Shown piece by piece: positions 15,001 through 21,000 of a DNA stretch of 64,000 nt. Made by a program: the position numbers. The DNA is taken from NCBI RefSeq assembly GCF_030013205.1, contig NZ_CP122648.1, one strand, 5' to 3'. This DNA comes from Escherichia coli (GTDB taxonomy: Bacteria; Pseudomonadota; Gammaproteobacteria; Enterobacterales; Enterobacteriaceae). Position 1 is the stretch's first letter, and every line of letters begins with the position of its first letter.

Positions 15001-18000
15001 AAATACAAAATAAGCACCTTAAATAAGCCTCTGGCGAGCTAAACGGTCATTACATAAGGGAATGTATTGTTTTTATCAAAACCTCGTTAGAACGCGTTTT
15101 AGAGCGTTATTAGACAATAATGAAGAATAGCACTACACAGGAGAGCACGAATTGCTAAGACAAATTATAAATTGCTGAAATAGATCGGATTTTTTGCAAA
15201 ATGGTATTGACAAATGTCTCTTTCTGTGCAATAATAGGTATTAGAGGGACAGAAAACATTCTTATCCTCTAAGTAATTAAACCAATGCACCGCACTTTGA
15301 GCCGTCAGGCTGCAAGGTGTCTTTTTCTTTTAACCAAATAGAATAGGAGGTTAATTAATGAAATATTTCACTCCACAGGATGTAGTAGAAGCCTGGAAAC
15401 GTGGTGAGATCAATCGTTTTAAAGTAAGGATGAACAGGAACACAGCGCGACGCTGTGGTTATCCAGAGCGTGAAAAATGTTTTGACGATGCACTAAAAAT
15501 TATTGATGAACTGCGTAAGGCAGAAGTAGAGAAAGAATAATAACAGGAGAAGGAGAAAACTATGAGCGAAACTAAGAAACCAATTCCGCGCACTTACCTA
15601 CACGTTGACCCTGAAATCTTCAAGGTTTTATTTGCTGAAGCCAAGAAAAGGCAAATTATGGTCAGTGATTTGATGTTAGAAATCATTACTGAAGCAGCAG
15701 AGAACATCAAACAAAAAAAGGGTAAGTGATCCTCATTCACTTTAGTAGCGCATTAAGCGTGATTTATAAGGAGATAATTCTAATGTCTAAAATTAAATTG
15801 ATTCGTGAAAAATACCAGTATGTTGATAAACAAACAGGAGAAATTAAAGACAGAACTTTGAATATACCACACTACTTTTGTGAGATTGAATTCATCTACT
15901 CCTCAAATATTGAGGATGGAAAAGCGAAGTTTAGTGCAGAAATGCAAAAATTATATTGCTATGTTTCAGATTGGGAGAAATCAGGGGGGATATGTTTTGA
16001 AACACAAACGAAGTTAAGTAAAGTTTGTGGCTGTAGCCGTAAGACAGTTAATGAATTGATTGGTCTTATGATTAAAATCGGTCTTTTAGAAGAGGTCGGA
16101 GAACGAATCCCAAAACGTCCTTTAAAATTACGTGCGCTACTTCTCACAGATGCACATATTACTCCCCCTGGAGAATCATCACTACCTGATCCTTCTGAGA
16201 AAGAAGACGAATCTAATGAAATATTGAATGTTTCCGAAATCATCCTTGAAGAAGAAACACAAGAGCCAGAGTTCCCTGAGCGGCCCGAAATTTTTACTTG
16301 GCTTCTTTCCCTTGATAAGAAGAAACCACCGCACGAAGAAACAGAAGATTTTGTAAAACGTGCATTAGATTCAAAGAATATCTATCTTGAGAAACAGGCT
16401 TTTCACGATCTGATAATATCTCTAAGAGAAAAAAGTGAAATATACGATTCAATACCATTCTAAGGAGAATAAATGACTTATAACATCACTATAGGAAACA
16501 AAACTATTGAAATAACTGAAAGCGGATACAACATTTTAAAAGCTATTTTGGAAATAGAGTTCTCACCGCCGACAGTGGTTAGCTTTTGTAGTTTAGGCGG
16601 CTACAGCGCACAACACGTGAATCATTGGTTAAACCATTTTACATCGTTCGGTGTGCTGGATTATGAAGGGATTAACAGCACTACATTTCGTCTTTTGAAA
16701 TTAAACAAAGATTTTGAATTGTTTATCACAAACAATCAATAACAACAGATCGGGCAATACATATGGCAAATGCATTTATGGCGATATTCATTGTAACAAT
16801 GGTATCAAGTTTTTATAATCCACATAAAAAGAGGGAAAATGGGAAGAAAGAAAAAGAACAACTTAAAACGTATTGAAAAAAACAGTAACTTCAATTCAAC
16901 AAGACAACGTCCACCGACACACACCAATAACGAAATTCCAGGGGAAGAGATAATATTTATTCTTGAAACAGAATCCCCTGAATTAAGCGATGAAGAATTA
17001 GAAATAATCCAGTCAATGCCAGGCGTTTACTTTCGCCCAAGAACAAGAAAACAAACTATCATTTCTGATGGCACTCTGAAACGTTGGCAGCTTTTAGGGT
17101 TTAGCTCCTATCATCATTTTTTGGGATTTAACGCTTTCAATAATTGTGTAGGTGGTGCATCGGAAGTCGATCTGATGGCTCATTTAGAAGATACATTAGC
17201 TTCTAACAAACGTTCTAACTAATAAAATGATGGGAGTATGTATAAGCGCCCAATGAAAATAATCGAAAAAGGAAAAATAATGATTAACTATCAACTATTA
17301 GAAACAACATTTTTTAAAGAAGCAAAACAACTTGCAGAAGTGTTTATTTCACTGGCTGAACGAGCAAAAGAAGAAAATGATTTTGCCTTGCTTGATGATG
17401 TGCTGGATGACATTGCAACCTATCGTATACCGCTACAGATTGCACTAAACAAGGCTAAACAGATTCAGCAAGAGATGGAATCAGCAGATCAAGGAGAGAT
17501 TGCACAATGACAGACAACATTCTGGAAGTTATGGACACTCTTTCGGATCGGATGATCGCCCTACAGACACGTATCAATCAAGCCTATTCAGATTTATGCG
17601 ATTACACGCTCTCTCAATGCGTTAGTAGCTTAATGAAGGTGAATGTAAGCCTTGACGATTTCATCTCTCTGGTGAGCGATTTAGAGCTATCTAAGGACGA
17701 TGTCAGGCTGTGTACTCAAACCATCACAGACACCGCCAGCACGTTAAAGGCTGCAAGTGAAGAGATTCAGCAATTAGTAGATGATTTAGCAAAAAGTGCT
17801 ATTTTCTCCAAATGATAATGAAAATCATTTGCATTTATAACGATTTCATTATATAATGATATTAGGGGTAGATAAAAAGGTTTTGACTGGTGTTAATCCT
17901 TCTACTGTCATAAATCCCTGCATATGGAAGGTGATAGCCTCAAGGGTTGAGTGGCATTAACCTCTAACAAATATTACCTTCCATCTCTCAAGAAGTTTTA

Positions 18001-21000
18001 GAATAATCATAACTCCCTCTTTGATTGTTGATTGTTTCTACGTTGTGTTGATGAATGTTGTTAGGCATTGTGCTTAATTTTGATAAAAGCGGGTAGGTGT
18101 TATCTCCTTGCCCTTCCCGCTCTTATTTTTCATCTATGCTTATCCTAAAGCTCCTTATTTTGTCCGAAAACATTAAAGAGCCTTACACTGATAGTTATAT
18201 TTTATAACTATTTACTAACATCATTAAACTCTTATTTAATGACAGAAGTTAGTAACAGAATAATCTATTAAGTTGTTGTCAAAAAACTATCATCTGCATA
18301 GCGTTAGCCGCAAGTAGAGAGAGTTTAGTTAAGAATGGTGCAATAAACTTTGGAAATATTGATAGCAAAACTAGTTTTATAGAATGCGGATCTATAATCT
18401 TTGGTTGTAAAAACGATTTTCTGAAACGGTAGATTACTGTTGGTGTAGTTAATCCTTATTAAAAATTTAATCTGTGAGTAGATTGGAATAGTGATTCCTT
18501 AAAATCTGACTGGTGCATCCACACCATGAAAGATAGCAGTTGGCCACCGCGCCCCGAATAGATATTCCTGATTGATTCCGCATGTTTTCCTAAGAGCATG
18601 TTTTCAGGAATATCTGTTCACCCTTTAAACCTATCTTTAAGCATGTTTAATAAGCATTCTTAGAGATACGTTTAAAACCTCCTCAAGGTTTTACTTATCG
18701 CTGTGTATTGCCCGACACGTTAATAAATCCCCCTCGCTATTGTCAGATTGAACCTCTTATAGCCTGGGGGATTTATTAAATTCCAGCATAATGGAATCGT
18801 TATATAAATGAAACAAGAAATTATCCTGAAATATGGCAATGAAAAGTTAACACTAACTGAAGATGTGTTGAATGCTACAGCCTACGCGCTTGGCATCACT
18901 CCCACAGAATTAAAGAAACAGTGTGAACGTCTTTATAAGGCTGAAAGCAATAAACCATCTCACCAAGATTTGATTAATGCTAAAGCTCAACAAATCAAAC
19001 AATCTAAGGAAAAATAATGGCTATTTTAAAATTAAGCGATGTTTTCCCACATCGTAAAAGCATCACTGACGTAGTGAGCTATGCAACCGACCCTTACGCG
19101 GCTGTAGAAAGCAAAAAATTTGCAGCACTTGCACAAGATGTAACGTGCGGCGACCTCATTGATTCATCCGGCGCTAAATATGTTAGCGGCGCTGATGTTC
19201 TTGTCGTTGTGTCTGACTTCGTAACTGCTGATTCAAATAAAACAGTTAACGTGCTTCGTGCTAATGCCGGACTCGTTTGCATCAAAGCTGATGCCCTGAA
19301 TGCCGAAGGCGCTGTAAAAGAAGCTGCTATTGCAGCTCTCGCTGCTAAAGGCTTCCAGCTTGAAGGCTTCCACTCTGTTTTCACATCTTAAGAAGGAATA
19401 AATAATAATGATTATCGGAAATGAAGTGGTTGATCTTGCTCCACTGTTCGAATTAAACGACTCACGCAATTACCTACTGTCTACTCTGGATTTTACTGAT
19501 CCTGTGCCTGTAGAAAGTCACAAAGTGGCTGTTTCCCAGCTTATCGAGAGCAATGAATCTCTGTTCAACCATCCTACAAGCCGTTTTAGCTCTGAGCATA
19601 ACGTTACTAAGCGTGAGAACGGGGAAGAATGGCTGATTGAAATCCCTTACTTCCTGCGTGAAGACCTGATCAAACCGCAGGACGTGCAAGGCAAACGCAA
19701 AGCCGGAAGCTCTATTGAAGAAACACTGCCGGATCTGTATGCGGAATATATCGCTACACACAATGTTGCATTCCAGCGCACTAAAGAAAGCATCCTCGCG
19801 GCTTCTCTGTTCTCTGGCAAGACACATACCCCGAAAACTGACGATGTTCTGATCGACTACAGCACTCTGTTCGGTGTGTCTCCAATGACTGCAACCGTTG
19901 ACGCATCCAGCACCAACACAATGACCGTATTCAAGCAATTTGATCAGATGCATACGGATATGATTGCTAAGGCACAAAGCCAGGCTGCAACCATTGAGCG
20001 TGTTGTTGTGTTCTGTAAACCTGCGGCATTCAACGCTATTCGTTACAGCGTTGGCATGGTTAATGCGTTCCAGTATGCAAGCCCTGTAGACGATGCAAAC
20101 GTGGTGTTTAATGTGCGTTCTCTGCTGCCTGGTGTAACTACTTTCACCATTCCAGGAACTAACATTGACCTGATCAAAGTGACTGATCCGCTGCTGCTGG
20201 CACATATGACCGCTGACGCTGTAGCTATTCCTAAACTTGCTAAGGGGGCAGGTGTTTACCAAGCTATTTTTGGTGCGCCTTCCAGTTCATTCGATCTGCT
20301 GTCTCAAGGCGCTAAAGAGTATTACAGCTATGCTTTCGAATCGAATCGCGGCGACGCAGTGCACGTAGTGACCGAGAATAGCTCGCTTGTGGTTAACCAC
20401 GGTGTTGGCTTCTCTGTGCAGATCACAGTAGCGTAAAAAGTGTTAAAGACGTTCCCCTACGTCTGGAAATAATCGGGGCAATAAGGGTAAGGGATAATCA
20501 TATAAGCAAAATATGCGCTGTCTCTTGCACTTTTTGTTTTTCTACTGTCTACAAACCCAAATAAAAATATATATATGTGAGAGAAAACCAATGAATACAG
20601 AAAATTCACAGGCATTAATTCTTAAATCTGTAAAAGAACTGGCAGCTATTAGCGATGACTCAATAATCAATGTCAGTGCCTTATGCAGAATGCTTTCAAT
20701 TGATGCAAATAATGTGCGGCAGCGTGTGTTTCAGACTGGATGCAGCACTTTTGAAGCAATTACATACTACTGTTCTAAAAAACAATAATAAACAACAATC
20801 ATAATACAGGGAAACAATTAACATGTTAGAGCTAAACATCAGCCGCTTGTCAAACGTTGTCACCTTCGAAGTTAACCGACCATCATTAGAGAAAGCAAAA
20901 GCAGAAGTAGAAAAACTTCGTAAACAAATGGCGGCGGTGAAAGATATAGAATTGCGTGTTAAGACACATAAACAATCAACCGCTAGAGCAAAAAAAGACG

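What the first reader, a model, noticed from the sequence alone, without database searches (positions are those of the whole stretch)
17816..18807. 1-kb ORF-free gap upstream of the capsid module holds three long inverted repeats with nearly identical 32-35-nt spacers
No ORF of 60 aa or more lies on either strand. The gap contains a 13-bp IR (17924-17984, 35-nt spacer), a perfect 12-bp IR (18560-18615, 32-nt spacer with GCATGTTTT twice) and a perfect 14-bp IR (18720-18779, 32-nt spacer). It also contains an 8-bp palindrome ATAGTTAT-n5-ATAACTAT near 18192 and a terminator-like hairpin (18088-18130). Perfect stems this long in AT-rich DNA, with a recurring spacer length, suggest protein recognition sites or structured RNA rather than chance. 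Given the position before the virion genes, candidates are a pac/cos-type packaging site, a late-gene antitermination or processing element, or a non-coding RNA.
Basis: seen in the sequence. Interest (0 to 1): 0.55.

Follow-up and report, generated by a model that had tools for sequence, protein, structure and literature searches.

The report
Structured leader RNA gating satellite virion genes
The 1-kb gene-free gap most likely encodes an unannotated, hairpin-rich leader RNA, ending in transcription terminators, that appears to keep the capsid and tail genes of a phage-parasite-like island (present in about 5% of complete E. coli genomes) switched off until something lets RNA polymerase read through.

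Summary
The right third of the gap folds far better than chance (z = -9.5).

The gap lies in a ~12-15-kb integrative island in a pig ETEC-like chromosome. It separates a replication/early module from a structural module: decoration-like protein, major capsid protein, tape-measure-like protein and a Dit-like protein. The nearest phage relatives of these proteins are virulent Phapecoctavirus-type myoviruses.

The gap starts with a near-consensus sigma-70 promoter whose hexamers are invariant. Downstream is a chain of hairpins: IR1, T1, IR2, a fourth long hairpin I call IR2b, and IR3. Divergent island lineages keep them through compensatory substitutions. Every stem mismatch in IR2 is a G·U pair on the + strand only, so these are RNA structures.

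T1 and IR3 look like intrinsic terminators. IR3 ends 28 nt before the first structural gene, whose ribosome-binding site is also sequestered in a hairpin.

A sister family in Enterobacter and Kluyvera has an unrelated leader sequence with the same layout.

The origin of replication is elsewhere in the island (iteron arrays). No DNA similarity to any sequenced phage and no Rfam match were found.

Best reading: a termination-controlled leader for late genes. The factor that allows read-through is unknown. A packaging site inside the conserved core is not excluded.

The parts
17829..17857 (+). Sigma-70-type promoter, TTGCAT-17 nt-TATAAT, 14 nt after the stop codon of the 102-aa early gene. The predicted transcription start is near 17864. 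A 20-bp near-palindrome (17843-17862) overlaps the -10 hexamer.
   Evidence: The promoter scan scores it 10 of 12. Both hexamers are invariant in 15 variants while the spacer varies at 3 positions. An 11-of-12 promoter sits at the same place in lineage 3 and in the sister family. The start site is inferred, not measured.
17864..17919 (+). 5' domain of nested helices in the leader.
   Evidence: MFE fold. Pairs are kept between the main lineage and lineage 3 through G·U to A-U changes, with 92-94% of cells paired (helices 1 and 2). Support is modest.
17924..17984 (+). IR1: a 13-bp stem closing a 35-nt loop. The loop motifs CCUCAAGGG and UAACCU are conserved.
   Evidence: Between the main lineage and lineage 3, 7 of 13 pairs change on both sides and 97% of cells stay paired. 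With partners slid by 1-3 columns, the whole 61-pair structure keeps at most 2 double-changed pairs, against 11 observed.
18021..18036 (+). TTGATTG tandem repeat, 2 copies here and 3 in some variants.
18089..18131 (+). T1: a GC-rich hairpin (GCGGGUAGG...CCUUCCCGC) followed by UCUUAUUUUUC, predicted to be an intrinsic terminator. A transcript ending here would be about 265 nt.
   Evidence: The hairpin is invariant in 30 variants, with dG of about -17.5 kcal/mol. Lineage 3 has a different GC-rich hairpin plus a U-run at the same place. The tool's simple terminator scan does not call it; its loop exceeds the scan's 3-8-nt limit.
18192..18212 (+). Palindrome ATAGTTAT-n5-ATAACTAT, forming a small hairpin or a dyad site.
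   Evidence: It is invariant except for one variant. Lineage 3 has a different small palindrome (ACACTGT-TTA-CAGTGT) shortly after its T1.
17888..18480 (+). Ultra-conserved core of the main E. coli lineage. It spans IR1, T1, the palindrome and about 350 nt of weakly structured AT-rich sequence.
   Evidence: Mean pairwise difference is 1.2% (17888-18135) and 2.7% (18136-18480), against 18% at third codon positions of the adjacent gene. In lineage 3 it has diverged beyond BLAST detection.
18487..18551 (+). The box best conserved between lineages. It holds two small hairpins: UGGUG-CAUCCA-CACCA (18511-18526) and GCAG-UUGGCCA-CCGC (about 18536-18551).
   Evidence: This is the only stretch BLAST aligns to lineage 3. 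Pairs covary: G-C to A-U or U·G at alignment columns 413/424, and G-C to A-U at columns 440/449.
18556..18619 (+). IR2: a 16-bp stem with a fast-evolving sequence, and the conserved apical motif (C)UCCUAAG(A/C)GC.
   Evidence: There are 7 alleles in 4 sequence classes. Of 13 anchored stem positions, 8 show double changes. Of 109 stem cells, 100 are Watson-Crick, 9 are G·U on the + strand, 0 are A·C and 0 are other mismatches. The + strand folds 7-10 kcal/mol better than the - strand in the A and C alleles.
18624..18676 (+).
   Evidence: repeat I1. It is kept in three sequence classes. The + strand is much more stable than the - strand, for example -20.5 against -7.4 kcal/mol. An equivalent hairpin exists in lineage 3.
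18720..18790 (+). IR3 / T2: a hairpin with a GC-rich top and a T-rich tail, predicted to be an intrinsic terminator. The stem ends 28 nt before the start codon at 18808. The apical motif AACCUCUUA is conserved.
   Evidence: Compensatory changes (T:A to G:C, A:T to G:C) are seen. Other alleles read GGGGCUUUUUAUU. Lineage 3 and the sister family have unrelated terminator hairpins at the same place, one with a UUCG tetraloop.
18780..18797 (+). Small hairpin AUUCCA-n6-UGGAAU that sequesters the weak Shine-Dalgarno sequence (GGAA) of the first structural gene.
   Evidence: The alternative allele pairs UCUG with CAGG over its own AGGA. These hairpins are weak (-1.4 to -5.1 kcal/mol), so the support is modest.
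18808..19017 (+). First gene of the structural module (69 aa, possibly a helix-turn-helix protein), the first gene downstream of the leader.
   Evidence: A recombination breakpoint between the two unrelated capsid modules lies at about 18824.

Best explanation
The gap is the transcribed, non-coding leader of the island's structural ('late') operon.

Proposed mechanism:
1. A strong sigma-70 promoter at its left edge (17829-17857) starts a + strand RNA.
2. The RNA folds into a chain of conserved hairpins.
3. Transcription is predicted to stop at two intrinsic terminators: T1 (18089-18131, giving a ~265-nt RNA) and IR3/T2 (18720-18790). T2 lies too close to the first structural gene (28 nt) to leave room for another promoter.
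4. A small hairpin also hides that gene's ribosome-binding site.
5. The decoration, capsid, tape-measure and baseplate-like genes can therefore be expressed only when polymerase reads through both terminators. I infer this happens after infection by a helper phage or induction of the island's early genes.
6. The conserved loop motifs (CUCCUAAGAGC, CAUCCA, AACCUCUUA) are candidate recognition sites for the read-through factor.

Shown from sequence and comparison:
- the promoter hexamers are conserved;
- the hairpins are real and maintained by selection on a single-stranded + sense molecule;
- terminator-like hairpins keep their positions while their sequences are replaced;
- there is no conserved ORF;
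- the origin of replication is elsewhere.

Inferred:
- that the RNA is made;
- that T1 and T2 terminate;
- that read-through is regulated, and by what.
For: Promoter:
- It scores 10-11 of 12, with invariant hexamers, in the main lineage.
- An equivalent promoter exists in lineage 3 and in the sister family.

Structure:
- z = -9.46 for 18540-18810 on the + strand.

Covariation:
- IR1 has 7 of 13 pairs changed on both sides. When partners are slid, the whole structure keeps at most 2 such pairs, against 11 observed.
- IR2 has 8 of 13 positions compensatory, with 0 mismatches in 109 cells.
- IR2b and IR3 are kept in three sequence classes.

Strand:
- All 9 non-Watson-Crick cells in IR2 are G·U on the + strand, and none are A·C.
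- The + strand is up to 13 kcal/mol more stable.
- In the sister family the consensus fold is -133 kcal/mol on the + strand against -113 on the - strand.

Terminators:
- GC-rich stems followed by U-runs stay at the same two positions in the main lineage and lineage 3. The sister family has two such hairpins just upstream of its first structural gene. The sequences are unrelated, and one has a UUCG tetraloop.
- Only 28 nt separate the IR3 stem from the ATG.

Layout:
- It recurs in a family whose leader has no detectable sequence or covariance-model similarity. In that family 37 of 154 predicted pairs are compensatory.

Coding and alternative roles:
- No small ORF is conserved across alleles.
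- Each frame has 16-33 stops.
- Iteron arrays at 14150-14340 come in three types that change together with the Rep allele, so the origin is placed there.

Helper context:
- Helper-type phages drive their structural genes from ordinary sigma-70-like promoters. Terminators would therefore be an effective way to keep a host-recognised promoter from expressing virion genes.
Against: - There are no transcript data, so promoter activity, RNA ends and termination efficiency are all predictions.
- The tool's simple terminator scan calls only part of IR3 and misses T1 and several homologues, because their loops exceed its limit.
- In the window's own allele the U-run after IR3 is interrupted (AUUUAUUAAAUU) and is partly absorbed into the stem.
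- No antiterminator was recognised. There was no Q, N, RfaH or LoaP-like hit in Pfam, PHROGs or NCBIfam.
- The conserved 127-aa early protein gave only a pLDDT-54 model.
- The ~350 nt between T1 and the conserved box (18131-18480) are nearly invariant but fold no better than shuffled sequence on the + strand (z = -0.9). The leader model does not explain why this stretch is conserved, and it could carry a DNA-level function.
Confidence: 0.55

Rival explanations
1. Trans-acting regulatory RNA or RNA-based immunity. The main product would be a stable non-coding RNA: the ~265-nt promoter-to-T1 transcript, or processed hairpins. It would act on other transcripts of the island, the helper phage or the host, as the P4 CI RNA or the P1 c4 RNA do, rather than serving only as a cis-acting leader. 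This is compatible with the leader model and could coexist with it.
For: - A strong promoter plus a terminator would give a discrete small RNA.
- Loop motifs are conserved across lineages while stems turn over.
- Several loops look like anti-Shine-Dalgarno sequences: CUCCU and AACCUCCU. The latter is complementary to the AGGAGGUU ribosome-binding site of the first early gene at 15344.
- The IR2 stem diverges faster than its surroundings.
Against: - No conserved complementary target was found in the island. The match at 15344 is lost in the other leader allele.
- There are no internal seqA/seqB/seqC-type complementary repeats.
- There is no match to the C4/CI, IsrK or any other Rfam family in any lineage.
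Confidence: 0.2
2. DNA packaging site (pac or cos). The conserved core would be the sequence that a helper-phage or island-encoded terminase recognises to package the island. It would lie, as in many phages, at the start of the head module next to a small DNA-binding protein.
For: - It sits immediately upstream of the head module and of a 69-aa protein with a possible helix-turn-helix segment.
- 17888-18480 is 15 times less diverse than neighbouring synonymous sites.
- Part of it (18131-18480) is not predicted to be structured as + strand RNA.
- The origin of replication is elsewhere, so another cis-acting DNA site is still unassigned.
Against: - The island has no recognisable terminase subunit.
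- There is no DNA similarity to any of 50,697 phage records, even at E up to 10, including the Phapecoctavirus group that the structural proteins resemble.
- The same core is joined to two unrelated capsid modules whose major capsid proteins share only 18-19% identity.
- In lineage 3 the sequence has diverged while the hairpins are kept by compensatory change. That is the signature of RNA structure, not of a DNA recognition sequence.
- The G·U strand asymmetry is not expected for a duplex DNA site.
Confidence: 0.15
3. Small protein genes. The gap would encode one or more peptides under 50 aa, for example the 38- or 46-aa ORFs on the - strand starting inside the IR2 loop, or the 23-aa ORF at 18136. 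The conservation would then reflect coding.
For: - ORFs of 23-46 aa exist.
- On the - strand, AGGA lies 4 nt before an ATG inside the IR2 loop of allele A.
- The indels separating the two haplotypes at 18481-18530 sum to 9 nt.
Against: - No ORF is kept across alleles. The - strand frame is 19, 38, 46, 93 or 107 aa long depending on the variant, and its start codon is absent in alleles B and C.
- Both substitutions inside the 23-aa ORF change the amino acid.
- PGAP annotates no feature under the gap match in any of the 60 genomes listed.
Confidence: 0.05
4. Origin of replication, or a neutral recombination linker between modules with no function of its own.
For: - The gap is AT-rich, at 28-37% GC.
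- It lies between mosaic modules, with breakpoints at about 17540 and 18824.
- Very low diversity could result from a recent recombinational sweep.
Against: - The gap has no iterons. Clear iteron arrays next to an AT-rich tract lie at 14150-14400 and change together with the Rep allele.
- A neutral linker would not keep five hairpins by compensatory change across lineages. It would also not rebuild the same layout from unrelated sequence in Enterobacter and Kluyvera.
Confidence: 0.05

Closest known systems
Lambdoid late-gene control: PR' promoter, 6S RNA, tR' terminator and Q antiterminator (from established knowledge of phage lambda)
   Same: A strong host-type promoter fires into a non-coding leader. 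A short transcript ends at an intrinsic terminator. The virion genes lie downstream of that terminator, with further terminators on the way, and can be reached only by read-through.
   Different: No Q-family gene or Q-binding/pause element was recognised. The leader is about five times longer than 6S RNA (about 950 nt against 194 nt) and carries several long covarying hairpins with conserved loops. The element is a small integrative island without lysis or terminase genes, not a lambdoid phage.
Satellite phage P4 immunity leader (PLE transcript, CI RNA, seqA/seqB/seqC) and the P1/P7 c4 RNA (Rfam C4 family; from established knowledge)
   Same: A satellite or phage uses an untranslated, processed leader RNA and premature termination to keep downstream genes off. 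Specificity evolves through changes in paired RNA segments.
   Different: No Rfam C4 or IsrK match. No repeated complementary boxes within the leader. The controlled genes here are structural genes, not replication genes.
Cis-acting processive antiterminator RNAs (HK022 put, Bacillus EAR) and N-utilisation (nut) sites (from established knowledge)
   Same: Promoter-proximal structured RNA with conserved stem-loops lies upstream of terminators that must be overcome. An exact lambda boxA octamer, CGCTCTTA, occurs at 18118-18125, followed by a small hairpin.
   Different: No sequence or model similarity to these elements. The boxA-like octamer overlaps the T1 tail, and its fifth base varies among islands (C, T or A). 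It may therefore be a chance match. No N-like protein was recognised.
Large non-coding regions of the Vibrio cholerae satellite PLE (as I recall from the literature on PLE and ICP1; I did not read these papers for this point)
   Same: A ~15-kb satellite-like island that probably exploits a virulent myovirus and carries kilobase-scale ORF-free regions with cis-acting functions.
   Different: In PLE, as I recall it, the best-characterised non-coding region holds the origin bound by RepA. Here the iteron and origin candidate is in a different gap (13665-15358), and the gap under study shows RNA-type covariation.

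Membership tests
Lambda-type Q-dependent late leader (PR'-6S-tR') | Constitutive sigma-70 promoter directly upstream of a non-coding leader | tested here: met
   TTGCAT-17-TATAAT with invariant hexamers. Promoters scoring 11 of 12 sit at the same place in two other lineages. This is sequence-level evidence only.
Lambda-type Q-dependent late leader (PR'-6S-tR') | Intrinsic terminator(s) between the promoter and the late genes | tested here: met
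   T1 and IR3/T2 are GC-rich stems followed by U-runs. They are conserved in position while their sequence turns over. Termination itself was not measured.
Lambda-type Q-dependent late leader (PR'-6S-tR') | Q-family antiterminator gene in the element | tested here: not met
   None of the island's proteins hits a Q family in Pfam, PHROGs or NCBIfam.
Lambda-type Q-dependent late leader (PR'-6S-tR') | Promoter-proximal sigma-dependent pause element or Q-binding element | tested here: inconclusive
   A -10-like GATATT follows the -10 hexamer in the main lineage but is not kept in lineage 3.
P4 CI RNA / P1 c4 antisense RNA (Rfam C4, IsrK) | Match to the family's covariance model | tested here: not met
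   Nothing reaches the gathering score. No C4 or IsrK match appears even at E up to 10 in the gap, or at E up to 1 in three other loci.
P4 CI RNA / P1 c4 antisense RNA (Rfam C4, IsrK) | Repeated boxes in the leader complementary to the regulatory RNA (seqA/seqC against seqB) | tested here: not met
   Apart from the hairpin arms themselves, only weak internal complementarities of 72-88% were found. No conserved target for the loop motifs was found.
Intrinsic (Rho-independent) terminator, applied to T1 and IR3 | Stable GC-rich hairpin immediately followed by a U-rich tract on the transcribed strand | tested here: met
   T1 is -17.5 kcal/mol followed by UCUUAUUUUU. IR3 is -20 to -26 kcal/mol followed by CUUUUUAUU in two alleles, and by the interrupted AUUUAUUAAAUU in the window's allele. 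The simple scan calls only the IR3 core.
Phage cos/pac packaging site | Adjacent terminase small-subunit gene, or sequence shared with the helper's packaging site | tested here: not met
   No terminase family hit in the island. No DNA match to 50,697 phage records. The true helper phage is unknown, so this weakens the idea without excluding it.
Phage cos/pac packaging site | DNA ends or packaging-initiation cuts map to the site | not testable with these tools
   This needs particle DNA.
Iteron-type origin of replication | Array of direct repeats (iterons) next to an AT-rich unwinding region, matched to the initiator | tested here: not met
   The gap holds no such array. Arrays of three types lie at 14150-14340 next to an AT-rich tandem repeat, and they change together with the 226-, 189- and 208-aa Rep alleles.
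Any described RNA family (Rfam 15) | Match at or near a family's gathering score | tested here: not met
   No match in the whole window. The best sub-threshold match in the gap is 19 bits against a gathering score of 112. The other lineages give nothing either.

The most novel reading that the evidence does not exclude
The gap would be a new class of ~0.9-kb multi-hairpin RNA switch. Through it, a previously undescribed family of E. coli phage satellites would sense infection by virulent Phapecoctavirus-type myoviruses. These satellites carry their own capsid, decoration, tape-measure and baseplate-protein copies. A helper-encoded or island-encoded factor would bind the conserved loops (CUCCUAAGAGC, CAUCCA, AACCUCUUA) and make RNA polymerase resistant to T1 and T2. 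Alternatively the promoter-proximal RNA would itself modify the polymerase, as put RNA does. The fast-evolving IR2 stem would set specificity.
Probability: 0.25. Interest if true: 0.8.

Novelty: new variant of a known kind. Interest (0 to 1): 0.6.

Why it matters
If this reading is right, about 5% of complete E. coli genomes carry an unannotated ~0.9-kb structured RNA that acts as the on/off switch for a set of virion genes copied from virulent phages. Carriers include O104:H4 outbreak strains, ExPEC/APEC and pig ETEC.

It would give a concrete, testable handle on how a chromosomal island detects and exploits a lytic phage. That question is worked out for only a few satellites, such as P4, SaPIs and PLE.

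It would add a new RNA family with unusually clear covariation to the short list of termination-control elements.

It also marks the island as a candidate new satellite family whose likely helpers are phages now being used in E. coli phage therapy.

Tried and rejected
- **Rfam.** The whole window at gathering thresholds, the gap at E up to 10, and three other loci at E up to 1 all gave nothing.
- **DNA similarity of the gap to phages.** No match at 1e-5. At E up to 10 there were only chance hits to unrelated phages.
- **Homology between the E. coli leader and the Enterobacter/Kluyvera leader.**
  - nhmmer found nothing significant.
  - A covariance model built from the sister family (R1) scored at most 10.5 bits in the island.
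  - The two leaders are either unrelated or too diverged to detect.
- **Origin of replication.** Rejected because the iterons are elsewhere.
- **Invertible segment or MITE.**
  - The gap is bracketed by an imperfect ~30-nt inverted repeat (17829-17860 against 18788-18813).
  - All ~50 copies have the same orientation.
  - The right-hand copy is not conserved in the other leader allele.
  - The core has no copies outside these islands.
- **A - strand promoter at 18813-18780.** Not conserved.
- **Small ORFs.** None is conserved.
- **Pairing targets for the loop motifs.** None is convincing.
- **Internal late promoter between T1 and IR2.** By eye, the candidate hexamers are not conserved in position between lineages.
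- **RfaH ops and T4-type late promoter (TATAAATA) resemblances.** By eye these are only partial matches and are not conserved.
- **Function of neighbouring small proteins.**
  - Pfam, PHROGs and NCBIfam gave no assignment for the 127-, 102-, 90-, 89-, 69- and 124-aa proteins.
  - PDB sequence searches with the 127-aa and 69-aa proteins gave nothing.
  - AlphaFold on a 13-sequence alignment of the 127-aa protein gave pLDDT 54, too low for a fold search.
- **Literature.** Searches found no description of this island or of a satellite of Stephanstirmvirinae phages in the held library.

Full report
**1. What is there**

The gap 17816-18807 has no ORF of 60 aa or more; the longest is 46 aa. Each frame carries 16-33 stop codons.

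- IR1, 17924-17984;
- IR2, 18556-18619 when extended to 16-nt arms;
- IR3, 18720-18779;
- the palindrome at 18192-18212;
- the hairpin plus T-run at 18089-18131.

A fourth long hairpin, which I call IR2b (18624-18676), was not listed.

As RNA, 18540-18810 (+) folds at -91.2 kcal/mol against -49.7 ± 4.4 for dinucleotide shuffles (z = -9.46). The - strand gives z = -5.6.

**2. Where it lies**

The window matches pig ETEC chromosomes at 100% identity. The gap lies in a ~12-15-kb island at window 11386-26042, bounded by a partial tRNA-Gly copy on the left and a tyrosine integrase on the right. On the left, a second integrative element separates it from the complete tRNA gene.

Island gene content:
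- a small serine recombinase;
- a 1.7-kb ORF-free stretch;
- an early operon: 60 aa, 55 aa, an O-like winged-helix 'Rep' of 226 aa, then 89, 127, 76-90 and 102 aa;
- the gap;
- a structural operon: 69 aa, 124 aa, a 342-aa major capsid protein (Phage_cap_E), 65 aa, a 607-aa tape-measure-like protein and a 225-aa Dit-like protein.

The closest phage relatives of the Dit-like protein (53% identity) and the capsid protein (25%) are virulent ~150-kb myoviruses of the Phapecoctavirus/Stephanstirmvirinae group. In those phages the gene order is decoration, capsid..., tape measure, then the Dit-like homologue. The island carries that subset in the same order, although I did not test the 124-aa protein's similarity to the phage decoration protein.

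I found no description of such an island in the held literature. I read it as a probable phage satellite, but that is inference.

**3. Distribution and conservation**

The gap sequence is present in 281 of 5,426 complete E. coli genomes (5%) at 87-100% identity. It lies at thrW or glyU, and once on an IncF plasmid. No feature is annotated under the match in any of the 60 genomes listed. Its length stays at 985-997 nt in the annotated copies I checked.

Across 15 distinct variants, mean pairwise difference is:

| Region | Mean pairwise difference |
|---|---|
| 102-aa gene, all positions | 12.8% |
| 102-aa gene, third codon positions | 18% |
| 17888-18135 | 1.2% |
| 18136-18480 | 2.7% |
| 18556-18807 | 21% |
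| 69-aa gene | 25% |
| 124-aa gene | 30% |

The left two-thirds of the gap is therefore far more conserved than the flanking genes.

Recombination breakpoints lie at about 17540 and 18824. The same core is joined to two capsid modules whose capsid proteins share only 18-19% identity.

**4. Promoter**

TTGCAT (17829-17834), a 17-nt spacer and TATAAT (17852-17857) lie 14 nt after the upstream stop codon. Both hexamers are invariant while the spacer varies at three positions.

Promoters scoring 11 of 12 occupy the same position in lineage 3 (TTGACT-17-TATAAT) and in the sister family (TTGACA-17-TAGAAT). Their spacers are clearly related to each other.

A promoter-like sequence on the - strand at the right edge is not conserved.

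**5. The hairpins are RNA structures on the + strand**

*IR2.* It exists in seven alleles of four sequence classes.
- Anchored at its conserved base (GAAUA...UAUUC), 8 of 13 stem positions show changes on both sides.
- Of 109 stem cells, 100 are Watson-Crick, 9 are G·U as read on the + strand, none are A·C and none are other mismatches.
- The + strand hairpin is 7-10 kcal/mol more stable than its complement in the A and C alleles.

*IR2b.* It is kept in three classes, again with a strong + strand advantage (-20.5 against -7.4 kcal/mol).

*IR3.* It is kept in three classes, with T:A to G:C and A:T to G:C exchanges.

*IR1.* It is invariant within the main lineage.
- A third lineage of islands (L057, L059-L061) was found through the 127-aa protein.
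- It has a colinear leader that BLAST cannot align except for 43-51 nt.
- On a plain MAFFT alignment, 7 of IR1's 13 pairs have changed on both sides and 97% of cells stay paired.
- Over all 61 pairs of the structure, 93.5% of cells are paired, against 37-55% when partners are slid by 1-3 columns. 11 pairs are double-changed, against 0-2 when slid.

The conserved box at 18487-18551 holds two small hairpins that also covary.

A palindromic protein-binding site in duplex DNA would also show paired changes. It would not show the one-sided G·U pattern, and it would not have 30-45-nt spacers. I therefore take these to be RNA hairpins. Single-stranded + sense DNA is formally possible but has no supporting context.

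**6. Terminators and the late genes**

*T1.* It is a GC-rich hairpin (-17.5 kcal/mol) followed by UCUUAUUUUU. Lineage 3 has a different GC-rich hairpin plus U-run at the same position.

*IR3.*
- It has a GC-rich top. In two of three main-lineage alleles it is followed by CUUUUUAUU.
- Lineage 3 has GCCGGAAG...CUUCCGG followed by UUUUAUUUU at that place.
- The sister family has two tandem terminators there, one with a UUCG tetraloop.

Only 28 nt separate the IR3 stem from the ATG at 18808, and I found no plausible promoter there. A small hairpin (18780-18797) pairs with the weak Shine-Dalgarno sequence. The alternative allele pairs differently over its own AGGA.

Phapecoctavirus structural genes are preceded by ordinary sigma-70-like promoters. 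An island copying this strategy would need another device to stay silent, and terminators would serve.

**7. A sister family rebuilds the same layout**

Islands in Enterobacter and Kluyvera (L025, L026, L029, L030) have a capsid protein 58-59% identical, the same gene order, and a homologous 129-aa early protein.

They have a ~740-nt ORF-free gap with no detectable similarity to the E. coli leader. Its order is the same: promoter, multi-helix domain, long hairpins, two terminators, first structural gene.

With only three sequences, 37 of 154 predicted pairs are compensatory. The + strand consensus fold is -133 kcal/mol against -113 for the - strand.

One motif is shared across families. CUCCUAAGA sits in the apical loop of a long hairpin in E. 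coli IR2 alleles B and C, and in L025.

**8. What it is not**

- *Not the origin.* Arrays of palindromic iterons next to an AT-rich tandem repeat lie at 14150-14400. They occur in three types that change together with the 226-, 189- and 208-aa Rep alleles.
- *Not a known RNA family*.
- *Not coding.* No small ORF survives across alleles.
- *No sign of a shared packaging sequence* with any sequenced phage.

**9. Mechanism, and how sure I am**

I am fairly confident (about 0.85) that the gap specifies a + strand structured RNA under selection.

I give about 0.55 to the specific model: a leader whose two terminators and SD-sequestering hairpin keep the structural operon off until read-through is triggered.

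Nothing here identifies the trigger. No Q-, N- or RfaH-like protein was recognised. The 127-aa early protein is conserved across families and has a basic N-terminus, but its model was too poor to use.

Two things remain unexplained:
- Why is 17888-18480 nearly invariant within the main lineage, yet free to diverge in lineage 3? Either strong lineage-specific constraint or a recent recombinational sweep could account for it.
- What do the ~350 weakly structured nucleotides at 18131-18480 do (z = -0.9)? A DNA-level role such as a packaging site could hide there.

**10. Comparison with known systems and novelty**

Functionally the nearest analogue is the lambdoid PR'-6S-tR' late leader. The P4 CI-RNA leader and put/nut-type antitermination RNAs are next.

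Membership in each fails on at least one defining feature:
- no Q gene;
- no C4/CI model match and no seqA/seqC boxes;
- no similarity to put or nut beyond a variable boxA-like octamer that overlaps the T1 tail.

I therefore classify it as a new variant of a known kind (termination-controlled late-gene leader). It is encoded by a new RNA family, in what looks like an undescribed satellite family.

Noticed in passing
window 11386-26042: The whole island looks like an undescribed phage-satellite family. It has an integrase, a Rep with iterons, and copies of only four kinds of virion gene (decoration-like protein, major capsid protein, tape-measure-like protein, and the Dit-like protein that follows the tape measure). 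Their nearest phage relatives are virulent Phapecoctavirus/Stephanstirmvirinae myoviruses: 53% identity for the Dit-like protein and 25% for the capsid protein. No terminase, portal or lysis genes were recognised. No description was found in the held literature.
   Followed up: partly
window 14150-14400 (within the ORF-free stretch 13665-15358): Probable origin of replication. At least 5 palindromic iterons, (A/T)GTAACGAnnnGTTACA, are followed by an AT-rich tandem repeat. Other islands carry two unrelated iteron types (CCCnAACAGAAnnnTGTTA, and GGGGGTAGGTCACTGTGAGCTA). These types change together with the 189-aa and 208-aa Rep alleles.
   Followed up: partly
window 18824 onward; L001, L005, L012-L019: Two unrelated structural modules are joined to the same leader core, with a sharp breakpoint a few codons into the first structural gene. 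Their capsid proteins share 18-19% identity, and one is not recognised by Pfam in the precomputed annotation. This suggests modular exchange, perhaps to match different helper phages.
   Followed up: partly
window 22647-23961: An IS3-family insertion (ORFs of 136 and 301 aa) sits at the 3' end of the tape-measure-like gene in this copy. It is absent from the otherwise 99.96%-identical island in strain EC556. Other copies carry IS1 inside the gap itself (hits H51 and H56) or IS2/IS3 elsewhere in the island.
   Followed up: partly
window about 1-11385 (L062 821-14420): A second ~14-kb integrative element lies between tRNA-Gly and this island, so two elements are arrayed in tandem at glyU. It encodes an integrase, a helix-turn-helix protein, an AntA/AntB antirepressor, an Icd-like protein, a DNA primase, a ProQ/FinO protein, PerC, a NUDIX hydrolase and a DUF2213 protein. 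The complete tRNA gene lies outside the window, which explains why ARAGORN found no tRNA.
   Followed up: partly
window 16839-17222: A 127-aa early protein is conserved across all three lineages and the sister family (35% identity to the 129-aa protein of L026). It has a basic N-terminus (MGRKKKNNLKRIEK) and an invariant core (FILE..SP.L...EL.IIQSM.GVYF.P). It has no family or PDB match, and its AlphaFold model reached only pLDDT 54. It is a candidate regulator of the leader.
   Followed up: partly
L057 (E. coli contig VNXH01000043.1, 14,263 bp); L059-L061: Lineage-3 islands have a different large replication-type gene (485-492 aa) and an extra 69-70-aa ORF before the leader. The L057 contig is about the size of the element. 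It starts inside the tape-measure-like gene, and the stretch fetched runs through the integrase and early genes into the capsid gene. That order would fit a circular or tandem form.
   Followed up: no
window 18118-18125: An exact lambda boxA octamer, CGCTCTTA, overlaps the 3' arm and U-run of T1. It is followed 12 nt later by a small hairpin, GCUU-AUCCUA-AAGC, whose loop resembles the IR2 apical motif. The fifth base of the octamer varies among islands (C, T or A), so this may be coincidence.
   Followed up: partly
window 17829-17860 and 18788-18813: An imperfect ~30-nt inverted repeat brackets the whole gap. The left copy is the promoter and the right copy overlaps the start codon of the 69-aa gene. 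The shared motif TTTCATT(T/A)ATA(T)AA could be a regulator-binding site, but the right copy is not conserved in the alternative leader allele.
   Followed up: partly
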